Shown piece by piece: positions 1 through 46,263 of a stretch of 64,000 nucleotides of DNA. Positions within the stretch are counted from its first letter, which is position 1. The number at the start of each line of letters is the position of its first letter. The position numbers and the translations under genes are program-made. A model generated the notes under the pieces. That model saw only the letters and a program-made list of their open reading frames with translations. It was not told where the DNA came from and made no database searches. The DNA is from a virus: IMG/VR virus record IMGVR_UViG_3300046536_000173, positions 1 through 64,000 of that record, one strand, 5' to 3'.

Positions 1-213
1 GAGGGCGAGCTTCCGCAAGCGCTCCAGCTTGAACCCGCCCGCGAGTATTGCGTGATCATGTGCGCCGACCTCGACGAATGGGAACGCCTCAAAGTCGCGC
101 TGTCGCTCACACCCGTCCGCCGAGGCGGATACAAGCGGGGATCTGTGCTCGACGACGTGAGCACGCAACGCGTCGTGACCGCCGCCGCCGTCCTGAAGCT
201 GATCGAGGGGTAA
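1..213 (+). CDS. 3' end of ParB/Srx N-terminal-domain protein (partial)
   Basis: Same C-terminus as 41945-42586 (EGELPQALQLEPAREYC...KLIEG). Confidence 0.85.
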   Translation, partial: EGELPQALQLEPAREYCVIMCADLDEWERLKVALSLTPVRRGGYKRGSVLDDVSTQRVVTAAAVLKLIEG

Positions 214-216
214 GAC

Positions 217-462
217 ATGTCCGACCAGCCGCAACCACAGATGATTGACAGCACCGCCGACCCGCGCACCGTCAACAACGTGGTGCGCCACGAATACCGC
301 GTGCTGACCGATGCCGAAAAAGACCACATGCGCGCGATCAAAGACCTGGGGCTTGCCTTCATTGAGCAATGCGACGCGATCGGATCGAGCCGCGAACTGG
401 CACTGGCGAAAACGAACGCCGAGATGGCGGTGATGTGGGCCGTGAAACACGTCACGAGATAA
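217..462 (+). CDS. Acb2/Tad1-like helical-hairpin nucleotide-sponge protein (anti-CBASS/Thoeris candidate)
   Basis: YRVLTDAEKDHMRAIKDLG resembles Acb2 YRDLSQEEIDMMNRVKELG; SRELALAKTNAEMAVMWA resembles Tad1 SRENACALTHVEEALMW. Confidence 0.7.
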   Translation: MSDQPQPQMIDSTADPRTVNNVVRHEYRVLTDAEKDHMRAIKDLGLAFIEQCDAIGSSRELALAKTNAEMAVMWAVKHVTR

Positions 463-465
463 GCC

Positions 466-651
466 ATGCAAGAGCGCGCGATCGTTTACTTCGTCGTCGC
501 ATGGCTCGCGTGCTGGTTGATCGATCTCGTGATCATCGTCGCGCGCGGCCCCGTGCTGATCGACCCGATCCTGAAGCTCGTGGTCGTGCTCGTGTGCCTG
601 ATCATCGTCCTGGTCGGCCTCGCGCGGCACGGATGGTTGCTGACCGGATGA
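466..651 (+). CDS. Small two-TM membrane protein (copy 1 only)
   Basis: Two hydrophobic stretches; ATGA overlap with next gene. Confidence 0.7.
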   Translation: MQERAIVYFVVAWLACWLIDLVIIVARGPVLIDPILKLVVVLVCLIIVLVGLARHGWLLTG

Positions 652-1397
652 CGAAGCCGAAGCGCCGCGCCTCCTCGATCCATGTCGCCGTGCCCTCGAA
701 GGGCAGGGCTGGCAGGGTCCGCACGCAAGCCGTGATCCCGTCGTGTCACGTCTATGTCCCCGCGCTCGAAGCCGCCTCCTACGGTGCGGCGGGCGCCCGC
801 AACGTGGTTCCCGTGCCTGACACCGTGCGCGGCATCACCGCGACGCGAAACTTCATCCTCGACAACGCGCCCTCGACGCGCGTCGTGATGATCGACGACG
901 ACGTGAAAACGCAGGGGTGGACGCATCTCCTCCCGCGCTCCGCGCACAAGCTCCATCTCGACGAAGCGACGTGGCTCGCCGAATTCCGCAAGCTGTTCGA
1001 GGTGACCGAGAGTCTCGACTTTCGGATATGGGGAGTGGCGACGGAAAGCGCGACGCGCTCGTGTTACCCGTGGGCGCCCTTCCGCTGGCGAGCCTACGTC
1101 ACCGCGTCGTGCATGGGGATCGTCAACGACGACCGCGCGCCCCGCTTCGACGAAGCCTATCCCGTGAAAGAGGATTACGAGCTGTGCGCCCGGTGCATCC
1201 GCGACGACGGCGGGGTCGTTGCGGCGCAGTATCTATTCTGGGAGAAAGCGCACTGGCACGACAAGGGCGGATGTCACGACTATCGCACGCAAGCGATGGA
1301 GCGCGACGCGATCCGCCGCCTTTGCAAGACCTATCCGGGCCTCGTGCGCGCCGTCGAGCGCGCGTCGAACGCCTGGGCAATCGAGATCGGAAGCTGA
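648..1397 (+). CDS. TET-associated/GREB1-like GT-A glycosyltransferase (TAGT family), putative DNA base modifier
   Basis: VAVPSKGRA, GITATRNFILD, MIDDDV, KEDYEL and GGC motifs; ATG at 648. Confidence 0.75.
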   Translation: MTKPKRRASSIHVAVPSKGRAGRVRTQAVIPSCHVYVPALEAASYGAAGARNVVPVPDTVRGITATRNFILDNAPSTRVVMIDDDVKTQGWTHLLPRSAHKLHLDEATWLAEFRKLFEVTESLDFRIWGVATESATRSCYPWAPFRWRAYVTASCMGIVNDDRAPRFDEAYPVKEDYELCARCIRDDGGVVAAQYLFWEKAHWHDKGGCHDYRTQAMERDAIRRLCKTYPGLVRAVERASNAWAIEIGS

Positions 1398-1398
1398 C

Positions 1399-1560
1399 AT
1401 GAGCGACGACCGCGAGCGCTTGCTTCTGAAACTGGTCGAGGCGGTGCAAGACCTCGCGGGAGCGATCCTCGACCATGTGTCGCCCGCCGACCGCACGACG
1501 ATCGCCGACGTGCAGGCGAGACTTGCCGAGATGCGTCGCGAGTATCGGGGCGGCGCCTGA
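1399..1560 (+). CDS. Small helical hypothetical protein (copy 1 only)
   Basis: MSDDRERLLLKL...; TGATG coupling to terS. Confidence 0.65.
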   Translation: MSDDRERLLLKLVEAVQDLAGAILDHVSPADRTTIADVQARLAEMRREYRGGA

Positions 1561-2072
1561 TGGGCCGACGCCCGAAGCCGACCGCCTTGCACAAGCTCCA
1601 CGGAACCCACAACGCGACGAAGCACGGTCGCGACCGCGAGGGCGAGCCGATCCCGCTGGGCGACCTGGAGGAGCCGCCGCACGACCTGACCGAGAGTCAG
1701 GAAGCCGCGTGGCGCTACGCCGTCCAGAACATGCCGAAGGGCGTCGTCAAGCTGGTCGATCGTGGCATCCTGAAGGTCTGGGTCGAAGCGGAGGATCGCC
1801 ACAACACCGCGCGCATGATGCAAGCCATGCTCGACCAGGACACGAAGCTAAAGCTCCTGGTCAAAGGCCCGAACGGGCTGGAGCCTTCGCCCTACAACTT
1901 CATCCTCGACAAGTGCGCGCAAACCATGTTCCGCGCCGCGCAGGAACTTGGCTTCTCGCCCGCCGCGCGCCCCCGCCTGAAGCTCTACGCGCAGCAACCC
2001 GACAAGCCCGCCGCCGACGTGCGCGCCGACCCGTGGGCCATGCTGCAGGTCATCCCCGGTGGCAAGGCGTAA
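1560..2072 (+). CDS. terS: Terminase small subunit, P27 family
   Basis: MGRRPKPTALHKLHG N-terminus, ELGFSPAAR C-terminal motif; upstream of terL. Confidence 0.92.
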   Translation: MGRRPKPTALHKLHGTHNATKHGRDREGEPIPLGDLEEPPHDLTESQEAAWRYAVQNMPKGVVKLVDRGILKVWVEAEDRHNTARMMQAMLDQDTKLKLLVKGPNGLEPSPYNFILDKCAQTMFRAAQELGFSPAARPRLKLYAQQPDKPAADVRADPWAMLQVIPGGKA

Positions 2073-3801
2073 GCCTCCCGCGCCTCCTGCTCCCGGCGAT
2101 GATCCGCGCCGCTTCGTGCGCGACGCGCTCGACTACGCGAAACGCACCGCCGACGACCCGACCGCCGCCTCGACCCATGCCCGCGCCGCGTGCGAGCGCT
2201 TCGTCCGCGACCATGCCGAAGCCCAAAAGAAGGACTCGCGCTGGTCATTTGACGACACCGCCGCGATCCGCGCGATGGTGTTCGCGACTCAAATGCCGAA
2301 CATCAAAGGCCCGGAAGCGAACAAGCCGATCCGCCTGATGGACTGGCAGAAGTTCGCATATAGCAACATCTTCGGGTTTATGGAGCGTGGCACGACGACC
2401 CGCCGCTTCCGACAGGCGGGCATCTTCGTGCCGAAGGGTAACGGCAAAACAACGATCTCCGCGCCGCTCGCGATGTATATGACCTTCGGCGAGGGCGAGG
2501 GTGGAGCGGAAGGCTACGCCGCCGCCGTCACAAGAGATCAGGCCCGCATCCTGTTCGACACCGCCTCGCACATGGTTCGCCGATCGCCCGACATGCAACG
2601 CGCCTGGGGCGTCGGCGTGCTGACAAACTCGATCTTCCAGGAACGCACCGCCTCGCGCTTCATCCCGATCTCCTCCGACGCGAAAGCGCTCGACGGCCTC
2701 AACGTCGCCGTCGCCGTGTGCGATGAAATCGGATCGCACCGCACGAGCGAGGTTTACGATGCGCTGATCACCGCGATGGGCAAGCGTCATCAGCCGTTCC
2801 TCCTGTCGATCTCGACCGCGACATCGAACACGTCGGGCATCGGGCGACAGGTCTGGGACTACGTGCTCCGCGTCGTGCAAGGCGGACAAGAGGACGAACG
2901 CCTGTTCGGTGTGATCTACTCGATCGACGACGCCGACGACCCGTGGGACGAAGCGACCTGGGTCAAAGCGAATCCAGGTTGGGGCCATAGCGTCCAGCCC
3001 GACGCGATCCGCGCGATCATGCGGCAGGCGCGCAACAATCCCGCGCAAGAGATGTCCGCCCGGACGCGACACCTCAACATCTGGGTCGGTGCCGACGAAG
3101 CGCTGTTTTCGACGCGCGCGTGGAACGCGTGTGGCGATCCCTCGCTCCAGATCGACGCCTTCGAGGGCCGCGACTGTTACATTGGCGTCGATCTCGCTTC
3201 GCGCGCCGACCTCGCCGCCGTCGTCGCGGTGTTCCCGGAGCGGATCACCGTCGAGGATCGCGACGCGCTGATGTTCACGGTGTTTTCGCGCTGTTACCTC
3301 AACGAAGCGGCGGTGATGGAAGCGCGCAACCCGTCCTATCCGGGGTGGGCCGCGAACAACGAACTGATCATCACGCAGGGCAACGAAACCGACTTTCACA
3401 CGATCGAGTCCGACATCCTCGACATGTGCCAGCGCTTCCGCGTGTGCTCGCTCGCCTTCGACCCTTACAACGCGGTCCACATGGCGCAACGCCTCACCGC
3501 GCGCGGTGTGCCGTGCCGCGAATTCCGATCGAACGCGCTGAACTTCAGTCCCGCGACGCGCGAACTCGAAGCCGCGATCCGGGGCGGTCGCATTCAACAC
3601 GACATGAACGGCCCGCTGGGCTGGTGCATCGGAAACGTCGTCGGCCACACCGACGCGCGGGACAACGTGTATCCGCGCAAAGCGCGCCCGGAGAACAAGA
3701 TCGACGCCGCGATCGCGCTGATCATGGCGATCGCGCAAGCGACCGATCAGGTCGATGCGTCGTCGGTTTACGAGACAAGGGGACTTCTGACCCTTGGCTA
3801 A
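2059..3801 (+). CDS. terL: Terminase large subunit (cos type)
   Basis: Walker A VPKGNGKT, Walker B VCDE, ISTA, KANPG, GVDLA, KIDAAIALIMA. Confidence 0.97.
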   Translation: MARRKPPAPPAPGDDPRRFVRDALDYAKRTADDPTAASTHARAACERFVRDHAEAQKKDSRWSFDDTAAIRAMVFATQMPNIKGPEANKPIRLMDWQKFAYSNIFGFMERGTTTRRFRQAGIFVPKGNGKTTISAPLAMYMTFGEGEGGAEGYAAAVTRDQARILFDTASHMVRRSPDMQRAWGVGVLTNSIFQERTASRFIPISSDAKALDGLNVAVAVCDEIGSHRTSEVYDALITAMGKRHQPFLLSISTATSNTSGIGRQVWDYVLRVVQGGQEDERLFGVIYSIDDADDPWDEATWVKANPGWGHSVQPDAIRAIMRQARNNPAQEMSARTRHLNIWVGADEALFSTRAWNACGDPSLQIDAFEGRDCYIGVDLASRADLAAVVAVFPERITVEDRDALMFTVFSRCYLNEAAVMEARNPSYPGWAANNELIITQGNETDFHTIESDILDMCQRFRVCSLAFDPYNAVHMAQRLTARGVPCREFRSNALNFSPATRELEAAIRGGRIQHDMNGPLGWCIGNVVGHTDARDNVYPRKARPENKIDAAIALIMAIAQATDQVDASSVYETRGLLTLG

Positions 3802-3817
3802 CCTGGAGGAGCACGAC

Positions 3818-3925
3818 ATGAGCGACCAGCCGAAGCCCGACGATCCGATCCCCGATCCCCCGCCAGCGCCGCCCGTGCCGCCCGTGCCACCCGTGCCGGG
3901 GCAGAGCGAACAGCCCGCCGCATGA
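3818..3925 (+). CDS. 35-aa proline-rich peptide (copy 1 only)
   Basis: GGAGGAG RBS; MSDQPKPDDPIPDPPPAPPVPPVPPVPG; ATGA overlap with portal. Confidence 0.55.
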   Translation: MSDQPKPDDPIPDPPPAPPVPPVPPVPGQSEQPAA

Positions 3926-5292
3926 GCATCCGCGAGCGCGTGGGCACATGGCTGTTGGGCGGACCTCAACAGCCAGCGACGCGCATCGAGCCGACGATCG
4001 AGACAAAGAACGACGCCGCCGTGACCTCGACGCTGGGCGGCCTGGGATGGCCGCAGCCGATGCTATACGCCGCCCTCGGTGGCTACGCGTCGAACACCGG
4101 AGTCCCGGTGACGCCCTTCACCGCGCTTCAGGCGTCGGCGGTCTACGCTTGCATCCGCATGATCTCGCAAGACATGGCGATGCTGAAGCCCTTCGTCCGC
4201 CGCGCCCTGGTCGGAGGAGGCTACCGCCGCGAGCTTCAACATCCGCTGATGAAGCTGTTCCGCCGTCCGAACCGCTGGCAAACCGGGTTCGAATTCGTTT
4301 CCTACATGATCACGTCGCTTTGCCTCCGTGGCAACGCCTTCGTCGTCATCGAGCGCGACAAGGACGCGAACCCGATCGAGCTGGTCCCGATCGCGCCCGA
4401 TCGATGCTCGATCATGCTGACAGAGGACGGCGAGCTTTGGTATCGCATCAACAGTCGCCGCCTGGGTTACGGGTTGGTCGTGCCGCCAGATGACATGCTT
4501 CATCTCAAAAACATCAGCCTCGACGGATACGTGGGCGCCTCGCCGATCGCGATCGCGCAAGACATCGTGGGCCTCGCGCTCGCGACGCAGCAACACGGCG
4601 GGGTCTTGTTCCGCCAGGGCGGACAAATCGGCGGCGTGATCTCGCATCCCGGCAAGCTGTCGAAGGAAGCATCCGATCGCGTCGGCAATTCGTGGCGCGA
4701 GACGCACGCCGGAGTCCAGAACGCGCACAAGGTCGCGATCCTGGAGGAAGGGATGAAGTTCGACAAAATCGCGATCACCAACGAGGAAGCGCAATTCCTG
4801 GAGACGCGCCGCTTTCAGGTGCTGGAGATCGCCCGCCTGTATGGCGTGCCGCCGCACCGCCTCGGCGAACTCGACAAGGCGACGCTGAACAACATCGAAC
4901 AGCAAAATCAGCAATACGTTGACGGAGCGCTGGCGCCGACCGCGCGCGCGATCGAGCAATTGTTCGATCATCATCTCCTGTTCGACGACGAGCGATCGTT
5001 CCTGGAGTGTAAGTTCGACTTCGACGAGATGACGCGCGGCGACATGAAAACCAGGTTTGAGGCTTACCAGATAGGAACCCTCAACGGCTGGCTGAACCGC
5101 AACGAAGTCCGCGCCCGCGAGAACATGAACCCGATCGAGGATGGTCACGGCGACGACTATCGCGTGCCGCTCAATACCGCCGTCCCGTCCGACAACCTCG
5201 CGCAAGTCACGACCGCGCCCGCCGAGTCCGCGAACGCGCCGGGGGTAGCGCCGACGAAGCCGGAACCCGGAGCGACCGACGATGACGAATGA
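3922..5292 (+). CDS. Portal protein, HK97 family
   Basis: AVYACI, LRGNAF, ILEEGMKF, IARLYGVPPH, NEVRARENMNP. Confidence 0.97.
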   Translation: MSIRERVGTWLLGGPQQPATRIEPTIETKNDAAVTSTLGGLGWPQPMLYAALGGYASNTGVPVTPFTALQASAVYACIRMISQDMAMLKPFVRRALVGGGYRRELQHPLMKLFRRPNRWQTGFEFVSYMITSLCLRGNAFVVIERDKDANPIELVPIAPDRCSIMLTEDGELWYRINSRRLGYGLVVPPDDMLHLKNISLDGYVGASPIAIAQDIVGLALATQQHGGVLFRQGGQIGGVISHPGKLSKEASDRVGNSWRETHAGVQNAHKVAILEEGMKFDKIAITNEEAQFLETRRFQVLEIARLYGVPPHRLGELDKATLNNIEQQNQQYVDGALAPTARAIEQLFDHHLLFDDERSFLECKFDFDEMTRGDMKTRFEAYQIGTLNGWLNRNEVRARENMNPIEDGHGDDYRVPLNTAVPSDNLAQVTTAPAESANAPGVAPTKPEPGATDDDE

Positions 5293-5476
5293 CGACATCG
5301 CGATCGACATCACGAGCGACACGATCCGCCTTTACGGCGTCCGCTACAGCCTCGCCTTGTTTCGCACGCTTGGCGTCGCCTCCGTGGGCGGTGCCGCGTT
5401 TCGGATCGTGCATCGCGAGGGTGAGATGTTGACGCTGGAGACGATCAGCGAGGAGCGCATCGATGCAAATACTTAG
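5282..5476 (+). CDS. Hypothetical protein (copy 1 only)
   Basis: 64-aa ORF overlapping portal and protease; absent in copy 2. Confidence 0.6.
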   Translation: MTNDDIAIDITSDTIRLYGVRYSLALFRTLGVASVGGAAFRIVHREGEMLTLETISEERIDANT

Positions 5477-6158
5477 CGCGACGCAATTCAAGAACCTGAA
5501 CCGTGGCCGCAACGTCACGCGCTCGACGATCGCCGTGCGCAAGCAGATCATCGCCCCCGCCGAAGGTCTGGAGCGCGGCGACGCGCGCGCGCTGCGCTTC
5601 ACGATCTCGACCGCCGATGTCGATCGCGAACAGGACACGATCGCGATCACCGGATGGGACTTGGCGAACTTCAAGCGCAATCCCGTCGTGCTCTGGGGTC
5701 ACGACGCCTCGCGCTTGCCGATCGGACGCGCCTTCGATGTCTCGATCGAGGGCGGCGCGTTGAAAGCCTCCGTCGAATTCATCCCGCTCGACACCCCGGA
5801 GGGCGGCACCTTCGCCGAGTCCGTCTATCGCCTCGCCCGCGCCGGTTTCATCGCCGCGACCTCGGTGGGCTTCCGCCCTCTGAAGTGGGACTACACGCGC
5901 GACGCCGCGCGCGGAGCCGACGACTGGTTTCCGGGGATCGACTTCGAGGAGCAAGAGCTTGTCGAGCTTTCCGTTGTCACCGTGCCCGCGAACCCGGAGG
6001 CGCTGATGGACGCGCCCGCGCCGGGTGAGGGCACGGCAATCGCGTCCGACCTCCCTCCCGTCACGGGCGAGGAGGTGACAGCCTTCAACGAAGAACAAAC
6101 AAGATCACGAGCACGCCGCCGACGCGCGCTCCAACTGGCAATGGCCACGAACGACTGA
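5463..6158 (+). CDS. Prohead protease, HK97 family
   Basis: DREQD, NPVVLWGHD, SVGF, LVELSVVTVPANPEA. Confidence 0.95.
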   Translation: MQILSATQFKNLNRGRNVTRSTIAVRKQIIAPAEGLERGDARALRFTISTADVDREQDTIAITGWDLANFKRNPVVLWGHDASRLPIGRAFDVSIEGGALKASVEFIPLDTPEGGTFAESVYRLARAGFIAATSVGFRPLKWDYTRDAARGADDWFPGIDFEEQELVELSVVTVPANPEALMDAPAPGEGTAIASDLPPVTGEEVTAFNEEQTRSRARRRRALQLAMATND

Positions 6159-41524: not shown

Positions 41525-41857
41525 ATGCCGATCGCCTCGCCGGTCTATCATCCGCCCGGTTGGCAGTCGCGCGCCGATCGACGCCGCGCGCACGACCAGA
41601 GCAAGGTGCGGCACTATTCCAACGCCCGCTGGCTCCGTCTCCGCGCCGCGTATCTCGCGACGCATCCATTGTGCGAGTGCGGATGCAATCGCCCCGCGAC
41701 CGTCGTCGATCATCGCAAGCCGCATGGCGGCGACGACGCGCTGATGTATGCCTGGGACAACCTCCAGGCGATGACGAAGCCGTGCCACGATCGCAAGACG
41801 GCGACGCAAGACGGTGGGTTCGGTCGCGCCTCGCGCGCCTCGGTCGGTGCGCGATGA
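41525..41857 (+). CDS. HNH packaging endonuclease (HK97 gp74-like)
   Basis: W..LR..YL..HPLC...ATVVDH..PH.GD...NLQ....CH..KT. Confidence 0.9.
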   Translation: MPIASPVYHPPGWQSRADRRRAHDQSKVRHYSNARWLRLRAAYLATHPLCECGCNRPATVVDHRKPHGGDDALMYAWDNLQAMTKPCHDRKTATQDGGFGRASRASVGAR

Positions 41858-41859
41858 TG

Positions 41860-41944
41860 ACGCGATCGACCCCCATACGGTGTCCGAAACCGGGATCGAT
41901 CGTGTGCACTGACCGCGCCCCAACTGATTTTTTAGCTTTCCAAT
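41860..41944. other. Probable cos region
   Basis: Non-coding gap right after gp74-like HNH and before the packaging operon; exact cut site not determinable. Confidence 0.5.
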
Positions 41945-42586
41945 ATGGGCCAGACTGAAGCCGCCGCTTGGCCCGCCGACCAGATCGAGCGCCGCGACGT
42001 GTCCGCGCTCGTGCCGCACGTCCGCAACGCCCGGAAGCACGGCCCCGCGCAGATCGCGGAGATCGCCGGCCTGATCCGCGAATGGGGCTGGACCGTGCCG
42101 ATCCTGATCGACGAAGCGAACGGGATCATCGCGGGGCACGGGCGCGTGCTCGCCGCGCAGCAATTGAACATCGCCGACGTTCCCGTTGTCGTCGCGCGCG
42201 GATGGAGCGACGCGCAAAAGCGCGCATACATGATCGCCGACAACGAAGTGACCGCGCACTCGACCTGGAATACGGAGCTATTGCGCGTCGAGCTGGCCGA
42301 CCTCGCGCAACAGGGCATCGACCTGGAGACGATCGGCTTCAGCGCCGCCGACCTCGCCGCCAAGGGATCGAGCGAGGGCGAGCTTCCGCAAGCGCTCCAG
42401 CTTGAACCCGCCCGCGAGTATTGCGTGATCATGTGCGCCGACCTCGACGAATGGGAACGCCTCAAAGTCGCGTTGTCGCTGACTCCCGTCCGACGCGGCG
42501 GATACAAGCGCGGGTCCGTGCTTGACGACGTGAGCACGCAACGCGTCGTGACCGCCGCCGCCGTCCTGAAGCTGATCGAGGGGTAA
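41945..42586 (+). CDS. ParB/Srx N-terminal-domain protein
   Basis: NARKH...I..WGWTVPILIDE..GIIAGHGR..AA...AYMIADN. Confidence 0.9.
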   Translation: MGQTEAAAWPADQIERRDVSALVPHVRNARKHGPAQIAEIAGLIREWGWTVPILIDEANGIIAGHGRVLAAQQLNIADVPVVVARGWSDAQKRAYMIADNEVTAHSTWNTELLRVELADLAQQGIDLETIGFSAADLAAKGSSEGELPQALQLEPAREYCVIMCADLDEWERLKVALSLTPVRRGGYKRGSVLDDVSTQRVVTAAAVLKLIEG

Positions 42587-42589
42587 GAC

Positions 42590-42859
42590 ATGTCCGACAC
42601 GCCGCAACCAACGATCGACACGACCGACCCGCGCGCCACCATCGACAGCGCTTCCGACGCGCGCACCGTCAACAACGTGGTGCGCCATCAATACCGCGTG
42701 CTGTCCGACGCCGAAAAAGACCAGATGGGCGCCCTCAAAGACCTGGGGCTTGCCTTCATCGAGCAATGCGACGCGATCGGATCGAGCCGCGAACTGGCTC
42801 TGGCGAAAACGAACGCGGAGATGGCGGTGATGTGGGCCGTGAAACACGTCACGCGATGA
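42590..42859 (+). CDS. Acb2/Tad1-like sponge protein, copy 2
   Basis: Homologue of 217-462. Confidence 0.7.
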   Translation: MSDTPQPTIDTTDPRATIDSASDARTVNNVVRHQYRVLSDAEKDQMGALKDLGLAFIEQCDAIGSSRELALAKTNAEMAVMWAVKHVTR

Positions 42860-43038
42860 CAGCCTGGGAAGATCGTATGCGCGCCGCGCTCCTCGCCTGT
42901 GAGGCGCAGTTTCACGCATACGCCGATCATCATCTGGCGAAGGAACCGCCCGATCGCGACAAAGCCGCGATCAACGTCCGATGGGCGATCGACTGCCACG
43001 AAGCCGCGATGCCGCCCGACCGGGTCGTGCTCCGTTGA
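42856..43038 (+). CDS. Hypothetical protein (copy 2 only)
   Basis: MTAWEDRMRAALL...; occupies the slot of 466-651. Confidence 0.65.
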   Translation: MTAWEDRMRAALLACEAQFHAYADHHLAKEPPDRDKAAINVRWAIDCHEAAMPPDRVVLR

Positions 43039-43784
43039 CGAAGCCGAAGCGCCGCGCCTCCTCGATCCATGTCGCGGTCCCCTCGAAAGGCAGGGCTGGC
43101 AGGGTGCGCACGCAAGCCGTGATCCCGTCGTGCACGATCTATGCGCCCGCGCTCGAAGCCGCCGCCTACCGCGCCGCAGGGGGCCGCAACGTCGTGCCCG
43201 TGCCCGACACCGTGCGCGGGATCACCGCGACGCGAAACTTCATCCTCGACAACGCGCCCTCGACGCGCGTCGTGATGATCGACGACGACGTGAAAACGCA
43301 GGGCTGGACGCATCTCCTCCCGCGCTCCGCGCACAAGCTCCATCTCGACGAAGCGACGTGGCTCGCCGAATTCCGCAAGCTGTTCGAGGTGACGGAGAGT
43401 CTTGAATTCCGCATCTGGGGCGTGGCGACCGAAAGCGCGACGCGCTCCTGTTACCCGTGGGCGCCCTTCCGCTGGCGCGCGTATGTCACCGCGTCGTGCA
43501 TGGGGATCGTCAACGACGATCGCGCGCCCCGCTTCGACGAAACATATCCCGTGAAAGAGGATTACGAACTCTGTGCCCGGTGCATCCGCGATGATGGCGG
43601 GGTCGTTGCGGCGCAGTATCTATTCTGGGAGAACGCGCACTGGCACGACAAGGGCGGATGCAACGACTATCGCACGCAATCGATGGAGCGCGACGCGATC
43701 CGCCGCCTTTGCAAAACCTATCCGGGCCTCGTGCGCGCCGTCGAGCGCGCGTCGAACGCCTGGGCGATCGAGATCGGACCCTGA
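43035..43784 (+). CDS. TAGT-like glycosyltransferase, copy 2
   Basis: Near-identical protein to 648-1397; TTG start. Confidence 0.75.
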   Translation: MTKPKRRASSIHVAVPSKGRAGRVRTQAVIPSCTIYAPALEAAAYRAAGGRNVVPVPDTVRGITATRNFILDNAPSTRVVMIDDDVKTQGWTHLLPRSAHKLHLDEATWLAEFRKLFEVTESLEFRIWGVATESATRSCYPWAPFRWRAYVTASCMGIVNDDRAPRFDETYPVKEDYELCARCIRDDGGVVAAQYLFWENAHWHDKGGCNDYRTQSMERDAIRRLCKTYPGLVRAVERASNAWAIEIGP

Positions 43785-43788
43785 TCAC

Positions 43789-44019
43789 ATGAGCGACATC
43801 ACCACATCACCGTTGGTCGCGGATGGTGGCCTTTGCTTGTTCCAGGCGATCGAGCCGACGCACTGGCTCACGTTCGCGTCGTGCGGCCTACGGATCAACA
43901 TGGCCACGGGTGAGGTCGTGATCCCGGATGGTCTCGCGCTCAACGAAGCCTCCCGGCAATTCTGGGAACAATTGGGGCGCTTTCATCCGCTCGCCCCGAT
44001 CGGGTTTGGTGATCGCTGA
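43789..44019 (+). CDS. Hypothetical protein (copy 2 only)
   Basis: MSDITTSP...; occupies the slot of 1399-1560. Confidence 0.65.
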   Translation: MSDITTSPLVADGGLCLFQAIEPTHWLTFASCGLRINMATGEVVIPDGLALNEASRQFWEQLGRFHPLAPIGFGDR

Positions 44020-44534
44020 TGGGACGCCGCCCGAAGCCGACCGCCTTGCACAAGCTCCACGGCACATACAACGCGACGAACCACGGACGCGACCGCGCGC
44101 AAGAGCCGGTGCCGATGGGCGACCTGGAGGAGCCGCCGCCCGACCTGACCGAAAGCCAGGAAGCCGGATGGCGCTACGCGATCGCCAACATGCCGAAGGG
44201 CGTCGTCAAGCTGATCGATCGCGGCATCCTGAAGGTCTGGATCGAAGCGGAGGATCGCCACAACACCGCGCGCCTCATGCAAGCGATGCTCGACCAGGAC
44301 ACGAAACTAAAGCTCCTGGTGAAAGGCCCGAACGGGCTGGAGCCGTCGCCTTACAACGTGATCCTCGACAAGTGCGCGCAAACCATGTTCCGCGCCGCGC
44401 AGGAATTGGGCTTCTCGCCCGCCGCGCGTCCGCGCCTGAAGCTCTACGCGCCGCCGCCCGACTCACAAGCCGCCGCCGACGTGCGCGCCGACCCGTGGGC
44501 CATGCTGCAGGTAATCCCTGGTGGCAAGGCGTAA
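44019..44534 (+). CDS. terS: Terminase small subunit, copy 2
   Basis: Homologue of 1560-2072. Confidence 0.92.
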   Translation: MGRRPKPTALHKLHGTYNATNHGRDRAQEPVPMGDLEEPPPDLTESQEAGWRYAIANMPKGVVKLIDRGILKVWIEAEDRHNTARLMQAMLDQDTKLKLLVKGPNGLEPSPYNVILDKCAQTMFRAAQELGFSPAARPRLKLYAPPPDSQAAADVRADPWAMLQVIPGGKA

Positions 44535-46263
44535 GCCTCCCGCGCCTCCTCCTCCCGGTGATGATCCGCGCCGCTTCACGCGCGACGCGCTCGACTATGC
44601 GAAGCGCACCGCCGACGATCCCGCCGCCGCCTCGATCCACGCCCGCGCCGCGTGCGAGCGCTTCATCCGCGACCATGCCGAAGCATCGAAGCGCGACACC
44701 CGCTGGTCGTTCGACGACACCGCCGCGATCCGCGCGATGGTGTTCGCGACTCAAATGCCCAACATCAAAGGCCCGGAAGCGAACAAGCCGATCCGCCTGA
44801 TGGACTGGCAAAAGTTCGCATATAGTAACATTTTCGGGTTCCTGGAGCGTGGCACGACGACCCGCCGCTTCCGACAGGCGGGCATCTTCGTTCCGAAGGG
44901 TAACGGCAAAACAACGATCTCCGCGCCGCTCGCGATGTATATGACATTCGGCGAGGGCGAGGGTGGAGCGGAGGGCTACGCCGCCGCCGTCACAAGAGAT
45001 CAGGCCCGCATCCTGTTTGACACCGCGTCGAACATGGTCCGCCGCTCGCCCGACATGCAACGCGCCTGGGGCGTCGGCGTGCTGACGAATTCGATCTTCC
45101 AGGAACGCACCGCCTCGCGCTTCATCCCGATCTCCTCCGACGCGAAGGCGCTCGACGGCCTCAACGTCGCCGTCGCCGTGTGCGATGAAATCGGATCGCA
45201 CCGCACGAGCGAAGTCTATGACGCGCTGATAACCGCGATGGGCAAGCGTCATCAGCCGTTCCTCCTGTCGATCTCGACCGCGACCAGCAACAGCGCCGGG
45301 ATCGGAAAACAGGTCTGGGATTACGTGCTCCGCGTCGTGCAAGGCGGGCAGGATGACGATCGGCTGTTCGGCATCATCTATTCGATCGACGACCAGGATG
45401 ATCCGTGGGACGAAGCGACCTGGGTCAAGGCAAATCCGGGCTGGGGCCATAGCGTGCAACCGGACGCGATCCGCGCGATCATGCGACAGGCCCGCAACAA
45501 CCCCGCGCAAGAGATGTCCGCCCGGACGCGGCACCTCAACGTGTGGGTCGGCGCCGACGAAGCGCTTTTCTCAACGCGCGCATGGAACGCGTGCGGCGAC
45601 GCCTCGCTTCAAATCGCCGCCTTCGAGGGCCGCGAATGTTACATCGGCGTCGATCTCGCCTCGCGCGCCGACCTCGCCGCCGTCGTCGCGGTGTTCCCGC
45701 AAACCGTCACCGTCGAGGGCCGCGACGCGCTGATGTTCACGGTGTTCGCGCGCTGTTACCTCAACGAAGCCGCCGTGATGGAAGCGCGCAACCCGTCATA
45801 TCCGGGGTGGGCCGCGAACAACGAATTGATCATCACGCAAGGCAACGAAACCGACTTCCACACGATCGAGGCCGACATCCTCGACATGAATTCGCGCTTC
45901 CGCCTGATGTCGCTCGCCTTCGATCCCTTCAACAGCGTGCACATGGCGCAACGCCTGACCGCGCGCGGTGTGCCGTGCCGCGAATTCCGATCGAACGCGC
46001 AAAACTTCAGCCCCGCGACGCGTGAACTCGAAGCCGCGATCCGGGGCAGTCGCATTCAACACGACATGAACGGCCCGCTGGGCTGGTGCATCGGAAACGT
46101 CGTCGGCCACACCGACGCCCGCGACAACGTGTATCCGCGCAAAGCACGCCCGGAGAACAAGATCGACGCCGCGATCGCGCTGATCATGGCGATCGCGCAA
46201 GCGACCGATCTCGCCGCAGCGCCCTCCGTTTACGAGACAAGGGGGTTGATCACACTCGGATGA
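44521..46263 (+). CDS. terL: Terminase large subunit, copy 2
   Basis: Homologue of 2059-3801. Confidence 0.97.
   Translation: MARRKPPAPPPPGDDPRRFTRDALDYAKRTADDPAAASIHARAACERFIRDHAEASKRDTRWSFDDTAAIRAMVFATQMPNIKGPEANKPIRLMDWQKFAYSNIFGFLERGTTTRRFRQAGIFVPKGNGKTTISAPLAMYMTFGEGEGGAEGYAAAVTRDQARILFDTASNMVRRSPDMQRAWGVGVLTNSIFQERTASRFIPISSDAKALDGLNVAVAVCDEIGSHRTSEVYDALITAMGKRHQPFLLSISTATSNSAGIGKQVWDYVLRVVQGGQDDDRLFGIIYSIDDQDDPWDEATWVKANPGWGHSVQPDAIRAIMRQARNNPAQEMSARTRHLNVWVGADEALFSTRAWNACGDASLQIAAFEGRECYIGVDLASRADLAAVVAVFPQTVTVEGRDALMFTVFARCYLNEAAVMEARNPSYPGWAANNELIITQGNETDFHTIEADILDMNSRFRLMSLAFDPFNSVHMAQRLTARGVPCREFRSNAQNFSPATRELEAAIRGSRIQHDMNGPLGWCIGNVVGHTDARDNVYPRKARPENKIDAAIALIMAIAQATDLAAAPSVYETRGLITLG

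What the first reader, a model, noticed from the sequence alone, without database searches (positions are those of the whole stretch)
1..1560. Anti-defence cassette between cos and terminase: ParB-N + Acb2/Tad1-like sponge + orphan TAGT glycosyltransferase
Seen: both copies (1-1560 and 41945-44019) keep the order ParB-N, 81-89-aa helical protein, variable gene, GT-A glycosyltransferase, variable gene, terS, tightly packed and mostly overlapping. Established: Acb2 and Tad1 sequester CBASS and Thoeris signal nucleotides; TAGT-like enzymes normally glycosylate a base first hydroxylated by TET/JBP; ParB-terminase-linked modification loci are known. Seen: no TET/JBP, methyltransferase or hydroxymethylase is recognisable in the 42-kb unit, so the acceptor is unexplained. 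Inference: a late-expressed, packaging-coupled module combining signal sponging with an unknown DNA or virion-protein glycosylation.
Basis: partly seen in the sequence, partly recalled or inferred. Interest (0 to 1): 0.75.

Follow-up and report, generated by a model that had tools for sequence, protein, structure and literature searches.

The report
Phage ParB-glycosyltransferase pair with inserted sponge gene
At the very start of two sibling soil-phage genomes sits a widespread two-gene unit, a ParB-like helper and a sugar-transferring enzyme whose target is unknown, and an independent gene for a small protein that probably soaks up bacterial alarm molecules has been inserted into it.

Summary
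Both copies carry ParB-N, an 81/89-aa Acb2/Tad1-family protein, a small variable ORF, a TAGT-family GT-A glycosyltransferase, another variable ORF and terS, tightly packed. They start 22 bp after a mapped cos end. No TET/JBP, DNA methyltransferase or thymidylate-synthase-like gene is in the record.

In 164 related glycosyltransferase loci a ParB-like gene lies directly upstream in 155, and the other 9 are cut by a contig end. In 131 the two genes abut. None of 100 related records has TET/JBP, while the positive control does. A complex model docks the conserved ParB C-terminal domain on the enzyme (0.72 against 0.00 for controls).

The sponge gene occurs in only one other of those loci. In sibling phages that lack ParB and the glycosyltransferase it sits between terS and terL, so it is an independent accessory insertion.

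The most likely reading has two parts: a ParB-tethered glycosyltransferase that probably acts on DNA, with an unknown acceptor, and a separate Acb2-type signal sponge. This scan has already noted the orphan ParB-TAGT pair on many other genomes. What is new here is the sponge insertion, the cos mapping and the predicted interface.

The parts
1..213 (+). Copy A: the last 70 codons of the ParB-like adaptor, i.e. its C-terminal domain. The gene is cut by the start of the window and contig.
   Evidence: All 9 differences from copy B (42374-42586) are synonymous, 0 of 9 nonsynonymous.
217..462 (+). Copy A: Acb2/Tad1-family sponge-like protein, 81 aa.
   Evidence: PF24729 at E 9.5e-18. AF2 model with pLDDT 87.6 shows a two-helix hairpin. 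Vs.4 and Acb2 are the top structural matches. Y27, K42, R59 and T66 are invariant.
466..651 (+). Copy A: variable 61-aa ORF that reads as two hydrophobic (TM-like) stretches. It is an accessory gene.
   Evidence: It has no family hit. An 87% identical copy sits directly after ParB in L002.
648..1397 (+). Copy A: TAGT-family GT-A glycosyltransferase, 249 aa.
   Evidence: PF20691 at 28.1 bits and phrog_842 at 4.6e-20. AF2 pLDDT 92.1. BFVD top hits are TAGT-domain phage proteins with TM about 0.8. R20, D83-D85 and K174-E175-D176-Y177 are invariant. dN/dS is 0.12 against copy B.
1399..1560 (+). Copy A: variable 53-aa ORF between GT and terS.
   Evidence: It has no family hit and no homologue in the fetched loci.
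1560..2072 (+). Copy A: terminase small subunit of the P27 type.
   Evidence: PF05119 at 25.2 bits, phrog_83 at 1.9e-20 and TIGR01558.
2059..3801 (+). Copy A: terminase large subunit.
   Evidence: terL homologues follow GT and terS in the related loci.
41525..41857 (+). Copy B: HNH endonuclease, the last gene before cos.
   Evidence: HNH families appear in the Pfam and PHROG scans of the ORF set. Homologues lie upstream of ParB in L002, L003 and L020 among others.
41908..41937 (.). cos region. One physical genome end lies between 41922 and 41923, after the conserved motif GACCGCGCCCCA and before A-C/T-x-GATTTTT.
   Evidence: At least 12 independent IMG/VR contigs begin at exactly this base. 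Continuous contigs carry the conserved motif across it.
41945..42586 (+). Copy B: ParB-like adaptor, 213 aa. It has an N-terminal ParB/Srx domain at about 13-138 and a conserved C-terminal domain at about 149-213.
   Evidence: phrog_620 at 2.4e-42 and PF02195 at 3.1e-4. The alignment of 27 sequences is A5. The C-terminal domain is the predicted GT-binding surface.
42590..42859 (+). Copy B: Acb2/Tad1-family sponge-like protein, 89 aa.
   Evidence: PF24729 at E 3.5e-17. dN/dS is 0.24 against copy A over the shared part.
42856..43038 (+). Copy B: variable 60-aa ORF.
   Evidence: An 88% identical copy lies in the same slot of L001. It has no family hit.
43035..43784 (+). Copy B: TAGT-family GT-A glycosyltransferase. 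The start is TTG at 43035, or ATG at 42981.
   Evidence: PF20691 at 31.7 bits and phrog_842 at 2.1e-20. It is 95% identical to copy A at the protein level.
43789..44019 (+). Copy B: variable 76-aa ORF between GT and terS.
   Evidence: 86% identical copies lie in the same slot of L011 and L012. It has no family or Atlas hit.
44019..44534 (+). Copy B: terminase small subunit.
44521..46263 (+). Copy B: terminase large subunit.

Best explanation
Three independent things share the stretch between the cos end and terS of two sibling temperate phages.

(1) A conserved two-gene late module. It consists of a ParB-like adaptor and a TAGT-family GT-A glycosyltransferase. The adaptor has a ParB/Srx N-terminal domain, of the kind fused to phage DNA methyltransferases, and a family-specific C-terminal domain. 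That C-terminal domain is predicted to dock on the enzyme. Inferred mechanism: the N-terminal domain brings the enzyme to phage DNA late in infection, around packaging, and the enzyme transfers a sugar from a nucleotide-sugar to DNA. The acceptor is unknown, because neither this phage nor its relatives encode any known enzyme that makes 5hmC or 5hmU.

(2) An Acb2-family protein inserted between the two genes in this narrow lineage. It most likely forms an oligomer that sequesters cyclic-oligonucleotide or ADP-ribose-derived immune signals (CBASS or Thoeris).

(3) Tiny swappable ORFs of unknown role.

Shown here: the gene identities, the synteny statistics, the cos end, the absence of TET/JBP, and purifying selection. 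Predicted: the ParB-GT contact. Inferred: the DNA target, the sugar transfer, and ligand sequestration.
For: Identities: (49 of 50 GT homologues hit TAGT).

ParB-GT pairing:
- ParB lies directly upstream in 155 of 164 GT loci. The gap is <=60 bp in 131, 61-150 bp in 3 and >150 bp in 21.
- The other 9 loci are cut by contig starts.
- The pairing holds down to 22-29% GT identity. It also holds in cultured Microbacterium phages and in Clostridium phage CS266P2.

Predicted complex:
- ipSAE is 0.72 as the median of three runs (0.77, 0.72, 0.71), and the best of 3 controls is 0.00.
- In the tool's calibration this mark was reached by 58 of 80 solved complexes and 2 of 110 mismatched pairs. My own alignments were used, so those counts hold only roughly.
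- The runs agree in at least 83% of contacts, and the partner pLDDT is at least 84.
- The interface is ParB 149-161 and 182-201 against GT 90-122, 136-145 and 195-196. It includes the invariant R200 and the nearly invariant Y159, V182 and V201.

DNA-directed context:
- The ParB N-domain is 58% identical to the N-domain of ParB-methyltransferase fusions.
- Mycobacterium phage Cooper has the same layout at its left end (ParB, TET/JBP-matching gene, terS, terL), with the dioxygenase where the GT sits here.
- The GT keeps the R...DDD...EDY motif reported for phage DNA GT-A enzymes and trypanosome JGT (passages of bioRxiv 2023.12.21.572611).
- ParB-like proteins activate phage T-dioxygenases (PMC13229309, abstract and sections 12 and 13).

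Absence of a base-preparing enzyme: PF12851 hits 0 of 1 own record, 0 of 50 and 0 of 50. The control phage Cooper hits 1 of 1 at E 4e-8. No C5-MT, N6/N4-MT or ThyS is present.

Acb2-like protein:
- PF24729 at E about 1e-17.
- The top 9 of 13 PDB profile hits are Acb2, Vs.4, Tad1 or Acb2 homolog 43.
- The hairpin superposes on Vs.4 at Z 7.4, rmsd 1.2 A, 54 residues and 30% identity. On Acb2 it gives Z 6.8, rmsd 1.3 A and 28% identity.
- Y27 and K42 align to the ligand residues Y11 and K26 of PaMx33 Acb2. R59 and T66 align to R67 and T74. All four are invariant in 26 of 26 sequences (residue roles from passages of PMC10312549).

Independence of the sponge gene.

Selection between the two copies: dN/dS is 0.12 for GT, 0 for the ParB C-part and 0.24 for Acb2-like, against 0.43 for terS.
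Against: - No acceptor for a DNA glycosyltransferase can be named. Characterised members of this GT-A group act on 5hmC or 5hmU, which this phage cannot be seen to make.
- A TAGT-domain enzyme, GREB1, is reported to glycosylate a protein (PMC7968844; search listing and start of abstract only). A protein target is therefore open, and it could include ParB itself, since ParB sits next to the catalytic DDD region in the model.
- The complex score is a model's confidence, not a measurement, and it rests on my own alignments.
- The window GT passes the TAGT gathering score only narrowly (28.1 against 27.5 bits).
- PDB matches to Acb2 are weak by E-value: 0.035 for the profile search and 0.2 for Foldseek, with no Foldseek match at E <= 0.001.
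- Unrelated helical hairpins reach the same Z as Vs.4.
- The alignment of R59 and T66 to R67 and T74 rests on a segment scoring only 2.1 bits.
- Phages L173 and L174 do without ParB-GT, so the pair is dispensable for packaging.
Confidence: 0.6

Rival explanations
1. The ParB-tethered glycosyltransferase glycosylates a protein rather than DNA. Candidates are ParB itself, a terminase or portal component, a virion protein or a host protein. In this reading ParB is the substrate or the substrate adaptor.
For: - No hydroxylated base can be made by the phage.
- The TAGT-domain protein GREB1 is reported as a protein O-GlcNAc transferase (PMC7968844; listing and start of abstract only).
- In the model the ParB C-terminal domain contacts GT residues 90-122 and 136-145, next to the DDD motif at 83-85. 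That position would also suit an acceptor.
- Generic GT-A structural neighbours act on many kinds of acceptor.
Against: - The partner is a ParB/Srx N-domain whose nearest relatives are fused to DNA methyltransferases.
- The same left-end slot holds a DNA dioxygenase in phage Cooper.
- The active-site motif matches the DNA GT-A/JGT group.
- The nearest structural neighbours are TAGT-domain phage proteins.
Confidence: 0.22
2. This is a classical TET-type pathway after all. The GT glycosylates 5hmU or 5hmC made by a dioxygenase too divergent for PF12851, or by a host enzyme.
For: PMC13229309 section 12 reports that PF12851 annotates only 83-95% of the contigs found with the authors' own phage 5mYOX profiles, and that thousands of contigs lack the annotation. 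Several ORFs in the early region have no assigned function.
Against: - 0 of 101 records with this GT clade match PF12851 at E <= 0.01. That set includes 18 IMG/VR records at least 90% complete, 2 complete GenBank phages and the window's own record. The control matched.
- Apart from ParB, only the terminase and portal-type downstream genes recur next to the GT in the 80 loci clustered, and the upstream clusters occur in at most 10 loci.
- The cassette slots here hold only 53-89-aa ORFs.
Confidence: 0.1
3. One reading: ParB-N, sponge and GT form one co-adapted, packaging-coupled anti-defence module.
For: The three genes are co-oriented, overlap or abut, and are kept in both sibling copies and in contig L001. 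All are under purifying selection.
Against: - The sponge gene is absent from the other 163 of 164 GT loci.
- Only 1 of its 80 nearest loci has the GT, and only 5 have any ParB-like ORF.
- In L173 and L174 it lies between terS and terL without ParB-GT.
- The ParB-GT slot holds unrelated inserts elsewhere: MmcB-like plus HNH, PAPS-reductase plus dGTP-diphosphohydrolase-like, SAM methyltransferases, and DUF1643.
Confidence: 0.05

Closest known systems
ParB-dependent phage thymine dioxygenase (5mYOX) hypermodification clusters (O'Toole et al., PNAS 2026, PMC13229309). Mycobacterium phage Cooper gp1-gp4 serves as a concrete layout.
   Same: Both have a ParB-like protein with an N-terminal nucleotide-binding-type domain and a C-terminal domain, and no family hit for a DNA-binding domain. 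In both it lies next to a post-replicative DNA-modifying enzyme and the terminase genes. The paper reports that GTs (31%), ParBs (27%) and terminases (19.2%) co-occur with 5mYOX. Cooper has ParB, a TET/JBP-matching gene, terS and terL at its left end.
   Different: No dioxygenase is present here or in 100 related records. The enzyme paired with ParB is the glycosyltransferase itself. The C-terminal domain of this ParB family is not matched in Cooper's ParB, where the HMM match covers only profile positions 14-141.
TET/5mYOX-associated GT-A DNA glycosyltransferases (Pfam PF20691 TAGT; phage enzymes in Burke et al. 2021, PMC8256090, and bioRxiv 2023.12.21.572611) and trypanosome base-J glucosyltransferase.
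   Same: Both have the GT-A fold. The R...DDD...EDY active-site motif is invariant. The Pfam TAGT match holds, and the nearest BFVD structures are TAGT-domain proteins with TM about 0.8.
   Different: There is no co-encoded methyltransferase, dioxygenase or thymidylate-synthase homologue, so the known acceptor is missing. [quoted passage not shown]
Acb2 (PaMx33 p26, T4 Vs.4) and Acb2 homolog 43; Tad1 hairpin domain.
   Same: Both match Pfam PF24729 and have the two-helix hairpin. The CDN-pocket Tyr and Lys and the cA3-pocket Arg and Thr have invariant counterparts.
   Different: This protein is shorter than PaMx33 Acb2, with no long insert between the helices. It carries a strongly conserved N-terminal extension: S12, D15, R17, N20, N21, R24 and H25 are invariant, and short strands are predicted there. 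Acb2_43 uses an added N-terminal strand to bind 3'cADPR instead of cGAMP, so the ligand here cannot be read from homology.
ParB N-domain fused to N6/N4 DNA methyltransferases next to phage terminases (phrog_498).
   Same: The N-domain is 58% identical over residues 8-138 to such fusions, and phrog_498 matches at E 9.1e-41. Both lie in a terminase-proximal position.
   Different: Here ParB is a separate protein. Its partner is a glycosyltransferase, predicted to be bound through a dedicated C-terminal domain.

Membership tests
Acb2/Tad1 sponge family (PF24729) | Match to the family HMM above the gathering score | tested here: met
   64.6 and 62.8 bits against a cut-off of 27. All 120 listed homologues carry PF24729.
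Acb2/Tad1 sponge family (PF24729) | Antiparallel two-helix hairpin protomer | tested here: met
   AF2 gives helices at 32-55 and 59-79 with pLDDT 87.6. The model superposes on Vs.4 at Z 7.4, rmsd 1.2 A over 54 residues, and on Acb2 at Z 6.8, rmsd 1.3 A. Generic hairpins reach a similar Z, so the fold alone is weak evidence.
Acb2/Tad1 sponge family (PF24729) | Cyclic-dinucleotide pocket residues (PaMx33 Y11 and K26) | tested here: met
   The profile alignment places Y27 and K42 opposite Y11 and K26 (segment 13.5 bits, whole-sequence E 0.035). Both are invariant in 26 of 26 sequences. The residue roles come from PMC10312549 passages.
Acb2/Tad1 sponge family (PF24729) | Cyclic-trinucleotide pocket residues (PaMx33 R67 and T74) | tested here: inconclusive
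   R59 and T66 align to R67 and T74 and are invariant. The aligned segment scores only 2.1 bits, and the paper says these residues vary among homologues.
Acb2/Tad1 sponge family (PF24729) | Hexamer assembly and binding of an immune signal | not testable with these tools
Testing needs SEC or a crystal structure, and ITC or native gels.
TAGT, TET-associated glycosyltransferase (PF20691) | Match to the family HMM above the gathering score | tested here: met
   28.1 and 31.7 bits against 27.5, which is narrow. 49 of 50 aligned homologues match, with a best E of 9.2e-20.
TAGT, TET-associated glycosyltransferase (PF20691) | GT-A fold with the R...DDD...EDY/F active-site motif | tested here: met
   AF2 pLDDT 92.1. 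GT-A matches appear in PDB and BFVD. R20, D83-85 and E175-D176-Y177 are invariant.
TAGT, TET-associated glycosyltransferase (PF20691) | Genomic association with a TET/JBP (5mYOX) dioxygenase or another maker of 5hmC/5hmU | tested here: not met
   PF12851 hits 0 of 1, 0 of 50 and 0 of 50 records, while the control phage Cooper hits 1 of 1. ThyS and DNA methyltransferases are absent.
TAGT, TET-associated glycosyltransferase (PF20691) | Sugar transfer to hydroxymethyl-pyrimidine in DNA | not testable with these tools
   Needs an enzyme assay or nucleoside LC-MS.
ParB-dependent 5mYOX cluster (PMC13229309) | ParB-like protein with an N-terminal NBD and a C-terminal domain but no DNA-binding HTH domain | tested here: inconclusive
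   Only the ParB N-domain is recognised, at residues 13-138. The C-terminal domain at 149-213 is conserved. No family hit covers a DNA-binding domain, but homology of this C-terminal domain to the 5mYOX-ParB CTD was not shown. Cooper's ParB matches the N-domain only.
ParB-dependent 5mYOX cluster (PMC13229309) | Cognate 5mYOX dioxygenase encoded beside ParB | tested here: not met
   The gene beside ParB is the GT in 131 of 164 loci.
Chromosome/plasmid partition ParB | Full ParB/Spo0J model, HTH parS-binding domain and a ParA partner | tested here: not met
   TIGR00180 scores 26.9 bits against a cut-off of 58.45. No ParA family appears among the 18 Pfam families found on 36 ORFs.

The most novel reading that the evidence does not exclude
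The ParB-tethered TAGT-family enzyme glycosylates phage DNA without any prior hydroxylation. The acceptor would be a canonical base, the backbone or the cos ends. ParB would load the enzyme on DNA as it is packaged. That would be a DNA-modification chemistry not yet described, carried by hundreds of phages. In this lineage it would share one late transcript with a signal sponge, giving layered counter-defence.
Probability: 0.12. Interest if true: 0.85.

Novelty: new variant of a known kind. Interest (0 to 1): 0.45.

Why it matters
Phage DNA glycosyltransferases of this family are understood only as the last step after a dioxygenase or a hydroxymethylase. Here, and in every one of 100 related phage records examined, that first step is missing, yet the enzyme stays welded to a dedicated ParB-like partner and is under purifying selection.

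Two outcomes are possible. A DNA target would imply a new acceptor chemistry. A protein target would mean that ParB-fold adaptors steer protein glycosylation at the packaging step.

The predicted contact is between the ParB C-terminal domain (R200, Y159, V182, V201) and the enzyme. It gives a direct experimental handle. Cultured Microbacterium phages carry the same pair, so the question is testable.

The Acb2-like protein belongs to a very large, highly conserved subfamily: 991 proteins at E <= 0.001 in one word-limited search. Its conserved N-terminal extension may define a ligand specificity of its own.

Tried and rejected
What led nowhere or was set aside:

- Single-sequence phmmer of the sponge-like protein and of the GT against PDB sequences found nothing. 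Profiles were needed. The GT profile gave only two marginal GT-A hits, at E 0.28 and 0.34.
- DNA similarity of 1-6000 to GenBank phages gave only short terminase and portal matches in 18 records, none over the cassette.
- Foldseek of the sponge model gave no match at E <= 0.001. The VIA second look shows unrelated helical hairpins at the same Z as Vs.4. Fold alone was therefore not used as proof.
- NCBIfam gave nothing for the sponge, the GT, the small ORFs, HNH or terL. The Atlas gave nothing for the 76-aa ORF.
- My simple GC3 gene caller mis-called antisense frames over ParB and Acb2, so it was not used for gene calls.
- The four small variable ORFs remain unexplained.
- A seroconversion (cell-surface) role for the GT was considered and set aside. 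I saw no hydrophobic stretch in its translation (read by eye, no predictor run), it has a ParB partner, and it lies in the late packaging operon.
- A degenerate-remnant reading was set aside because dN/dS is 0.12 and the catalytic motifs are invariant.

Literature:
- Searches for a described function of a ParB-GT pair without a dioxygenase found none. This covers only the held library.
- Iyer et al. 2013 (NAR), which defined TAGT, is not held and is cited from recall only.
- Supplements are closed and I did not open any. Dataset S10 of PMC13229309 and Table S4 of bioRxiv 2023.12.21.572611 may list such pairs.

Not done: sequencing-run and read-laying tools, oligomer prediction for the sponge, and host assignment.


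Full report
WHAT THE WINDOW IS. The window is the first 64 kb of an 83,470-bp IMG/VR virus record. A self-comparison shows two collinear, related but distinct phage genomes of about 42 kb placed head to tail. They are 71-97% identical block by block, with a period of about 42.4 kb. GC content is 65.6% and there are no tRNAs. Each unit encodes HK97-type packaging genes, a contractile-tail baseplate, an integrase, RecT and Cro/HTH regulators, so it is a temperate phage. An earlier follow-up of this scan judged the tandem arrangement to be an assembly join of two sibling phages (e1-6118265). I did not re-test that beyond.

CHECK OF THE OBSERVATION.
- Copy A: ParB C-terminal 70 aa (1-213; the contig starts inside the gene), 81-aa protein (217-462), 61-aa hydrophobic ORF (466-651), GT (648-1397), 53-aa ORF (1399-1560), terS (1560-2072), terL (2059-3801).
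- Copy B: HNH (41525-41857), ParB (41945-42586), 89-aa protein (42590-42859), 60-aa ORF (42856-43038), GT (43035-43784), 76-aa ORF (43789-44019), terS (44019-44534), terL (44521-46263).
- Neighbouring genes are 1-4 bp apart or overlap by 1-4 bp.
- ParB/Acb2-like, GT and terS are 88.6-93.3% identical between copies. The two small-ORF slots share no similarity.
- Three of the four small ORFs recur in the same slots of other contigs at 86-88% identity. They are real, exchangeable accessory genes with no family assignment.

THE SPONGE-LIKE PROTEIN.
- Both copies match Pfam Acb2_Tad1_hairpin at E 9.5e-18 and 3.5e-17.
- A word-limited search found 991 proteins at E <= 0.001 among 993 candidates, and the listed ones all carry PF24729.
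- In an alignment of 26 of them, 31 columns are invariant.
- A profile of that alignment found 13 PDB sequences at E <= 10. The top nine are Acb2 (p26), T4 Vs.4, Tad1 and 'Acb2 homolog 43'. The E-values are weak, with a best of 0.035.
- The AF2 model (pLDDT 87.6) is a two-helix hairpin with an N-terminal extension that holds two short strands.
- Foldseek's first eight rows are Vs.4 and Acb2 chains (probability 0.94-1.00), but no row reaches E 0.001.
- The VIA second look gives Vs.4 at Z 7.4, rmsd 1.2 A, 54 residues and 30% identity. Acb2 gives Z 6.8, rmsd 1.3 A and 28% identity. Unrelated hairpins reach the same Z at a much worse rmsd.
- Passages of PMC10312549 state that Y11 and K26 of PaMx33 Acb2 bind cyclic dinucleotides and that R67 and T74 bind cA3. 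In the profile alignment these fall opposite Y27, K42, R59 and T66, all invariant in the 26 sequences. The R67/T74 segment scores only 2.1 bits.
- The subfamily also has an invariant N-terminal block: S12, D15, R17, N20, N21, R24 and H25. Passages of bioRxiv 2025.08.24.671296 report that Acb2_43 uses an extra N-terminal strand to bind 3'cADPR and does not inhibit CBASS.
- Family membership is therefore well supported, but the ligand is open.

THE GLYCOSYLTRANSFERASE.
- Both copies pass the TAGT gathering score narrowly (28.1 and 31.7 bits against 27.5) and match phrog_842 at about 1e-20.
- An exhaustive search found 885 cluster representatives at E <= 0.001. Of 50 sequences aligned (48 of those representatives plus the two window copies), 49 match TAGT.
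- The AF2 model (pLDDT 92.1, pTM 0.90) is a GT-A fold.
- PDB neighbours are generic GT-A enzymes (AvpGT at 2.2e-7, WrtF, TarS/TarP). BFVD neighbours are TAGT-domain phage proteins (best 8.1e-18, TM 0.81).
- R20, D83-D84-D85 and K174-E175-D176-Y177 are invariant across 27 sequences spanning 21-75% identity.
- Passages of bioRxiv 2023.12.21.572611 give R...DDD...EDY/F as the shared active-site motif of phage DNA GT-A enzymes and trypanosome JGT.

NO MAKER OF A HYDROXYLATED BASE.
- Six-frame searches of the whole record found no TET_JBP, C5-methyltransferase, N6/N4-methyltransferase or thymidylate-synthase family match. The last three have working controls in the tool's named genomes.
- A Pfam scan of 36 ORFs between 23.7 and 41.9 kb found 18 families, none of these kinds.
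- For TET_JBP I supplied my own positive control. Mycobacterium phage Cooper gives a match at E 4e-8 (28.2 bits, below the curated cut-off but well inside my threshold).

THE NEIGHBOURHOOD SURVEY CHANGES THE READING.
- I fetched GT relatives from IMG/VR in four scans: 8 loci, 80 of 278, 80 of 140, and 2. I added two GenBank phages. After dropping five duplicate fetches this gives 164 GT loci.
- A ParB-like ORF lies directly upstream on the same strand in 155 of them. The gap is <=60 bp in 131, 61-150 bp in 3 and >150 bp in 21.
- The 9 loci without ParB are all cut by a contig start. Seven have under 310 bp upstream. L094 starts inside a second GT. L084 starts inside the same PAPS-reductase/dGTP-diphosphohydrolase insert seen in L077.
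- The pairing holds for GTs only 22-29% identical to the window's, for ParBs 14-40% identical, for two different terminase types, and for cultured Microbacterium phages and Clostridium phage CS266P2.
- PF12851 matched 0 of 50 records of the near clade, 5 of them at least 90% complete. Thirty shorter contigs of that clade were not searched. It also matched 0 of 50 of the distant clade plus the two GenBank phages, 13 of them at least 90% complete.
- In contrast, my Acb2-like HMM hit only one other contig among the 164 GT loci: L001/L009, which is 96-98% identical to copy A.
- Among the 80 nearest Acb2-like loci (of at least 540), only that same contig has the GT, and 5 have any ParB-like ORF.
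- In L173 and L174 terL is 74-75% identical to the window's. There the genome's left end runs straight into terS, and the Acb2-like gene (83% identical) lies between terS and terL with no ParB-GT.
- Where other phages have inserts between ParB and GT, these are unrelated: MmcB-like plus HNH, PAPS-reductase-like plus dGTP-diphosphohydrolase-like, class-I SAM methyltransferases, and DUF1643.
- The conserved unit is therefore ParB plus GT. The sponge gene and the tiny ORFs are separate accessory insertions.

ParB AND ITS PREDICTED CONTACT WITH THE GT.
- The 213-aa protein has a ParB/Srx N-domain at about residues 13-138 (phrog_620 at 2.4e-42). That domain is 58% identical to the N-domain of ParB-methyltransferase fusions.
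- It scores far below the partition-ParB model, 26.9 against 58.45 bits.
- A C-terminal domain at 149-213 is conserved across the family. R200 is invariant, and Y159, W170, V182, G197 and V201 are nearly so.
- The ipSAE was 0.77, 0.72 and 0.71, with a median of 0.72. The best of three controls was 0.00.
- In the tool's calibration that mark was reached by 58 of 80 solved complexes and 2 of 110 mismatched pairs. My own alignments were used, so those counts hold only roughly. The runs agree in at least 83% of contacts, and the partner pLDDT is at least 84.
- The interface is ParB 149-161 and 182-201 against GT 90-122, 136-145 and 195-196. The conserved C-terminal domain is thus the predicted GT-binding domain. 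This supports binding but does not show it.

cos.
- Twelve or more independent contigs begin at exactly the same base. Their starts read ACTGATTTTTT, ACCGATTTTT or ATGGAT(A)TTTT.
- In continuous sequences (the window, L002, L020, L023, L024, L030) the conserved motif GACCGCGCCCCA precedes that base.
- In the window this places one physical genome end between 41922 and 41923, which is 22 bp before the ParB start codon and 65 bp after the HNH stop. ParB is therefore the first gene of the packaged genome.

COMPARISON WITH WHAT IS KNOWN.
- O'Toole et al. [quoted passage not shown] They also report that 5mYOX genes co-occur with GTs (31%), ParBs (27%) and terminases (19.2%).
- Phage Cooper shows that layout concretely: gp1 ParB, gp2 with the TET_JBP match, gp3 terS and gp4 terL at the left genome end. 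My ParB HMM matches Cooper's ParB only over the N-domain (profile positions 14-141). That fits a shared N-domain with a partner-specific C-terminal domain.
- The window has the same architecture with the GT in the enzyme slot and no dioxygenase.
- The GT preprint notes that about 65% of its GT contigs have no 5mYOX or ThyS neighbour, and says ParB annotations go with 5mYOX pathways. I found no paper describing an obligate ParB-GT pair without a dioxygenase. The supplements were not seen.
- This scan has noted the orphan ParB-TAGT pair before on many other genomes (339 notes in at least 299 genomes, for example e1-146060, e1-485418 and e1-461629) and on this genome (e1-6118274 and e1-6118275). 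My results agree with those notes, and they lower the novelty of that part.

MECHANISM AND ODDS. I put 0.6 on the composite reading. Its parts are a ParB-tethered GT module that most likely acts on phage DNA near packaging with an unknown acceptor, an independent Acb2-type sponge, and accessory ORFs. The anatomy is secure. The DNA target is an inference from three things: the ParB N-domain's relatives, the Cooper-type layout and the active-site motif.
- Rival, 0.22: the target is a protein, possibly ParB itself.
- Rival, 0.10: a hidden or host dioxygenase supplies the acceptor.

All three genes are under purifying selection between the sibling copies. dN/dS is 0.12 for GT, 0 for the ParB C-part (0 of 9 changes nonsynonymous) and 0.24 for Acb2-like, against 0.43 for terS.

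VERDICT. The sponge is a new member of a known family. The ParB-GT pair is a variant of known ParB-guided DNA-modification cassettes that lacks their defining first enzyme. Interest is 0.45. The puzzle is real and testable, but it has already been seen repeatedly in this scan, and nothing specific to this window resolves the acceptor.

Noticed in passing
window 1-64000 (record 1-83470): The record holds two sibling phage genomes of about 42 kb head to tail, 71-97% identical block by block. The contig starts inside ParB and ends inside HNH. Earlier notes of this scan judged this an assembly join.
   Followed up: partly
window 41908-41937; starts of L001, L005, L006, L010-L013, L017-L019, L021, L022: A conserved cos-end motif. 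Many independent contigs start at the same base, after GACCGCGCCCCA, which maps one genome end to 41922/41923.
   Followed up: yes
L173:1-2843 and L174:1068-3902: Sibling phages without ParB-GT carry the Acb2-like gene, followed by a 96-aa ORF, between terS and terL. The packaging operon therefore has at least two accessory-gene slots.
   Followed up: partly
L077:4121-5437 and L084:1-733: A PAPS-reductase-like gene and a dATP/dGTP-diphosphohydrolase-N-like gene are inserted between ParB and the GT. This may be a different nucleotide or DNA modification route joined to the same pair.
   Followed up: no
L101:7442-8017 and L144:1268-2038: Class-I SAM methyltransferases of the small-molecule type sit between ParB and the GT in other phages. 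They may tailor the sugar or the acceptor.
   Followed up: no
L094:1-1451: Two GTs of the same family lie in tandem. The upstream one is cut by the contig start.
   Followed up: no
L086:5658-7854 (Microbacterium phage Metamorphoo): A cultured phage has gp84 ParB-like, gp85 glycosyltransferase and gp86 annotated UDP-glucose dehydrogenase near its right genome end. No TET_JBP is found in the whole record. It is a tractable system for the open question.
   Followed up: partly
L252:785-1753 (Mycobacterium phage Cooper gp2): The gene annotated 'queuine tRNA-ribosyltransferase' carries the TET_JBP match at 1109-1513 (E 4e-8). It sits between a ParB-like gene and terS, so the annotation looks doubtful.
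   Followed up: partly
window 3-362 (-) and 41932-42675 (-): Long antisense ORFs with high GC3 overlie ParB and the Acb2-like gene and fooled a simple GC3 gene caller. This is probably a high-GC artefact.
   Followed up: no
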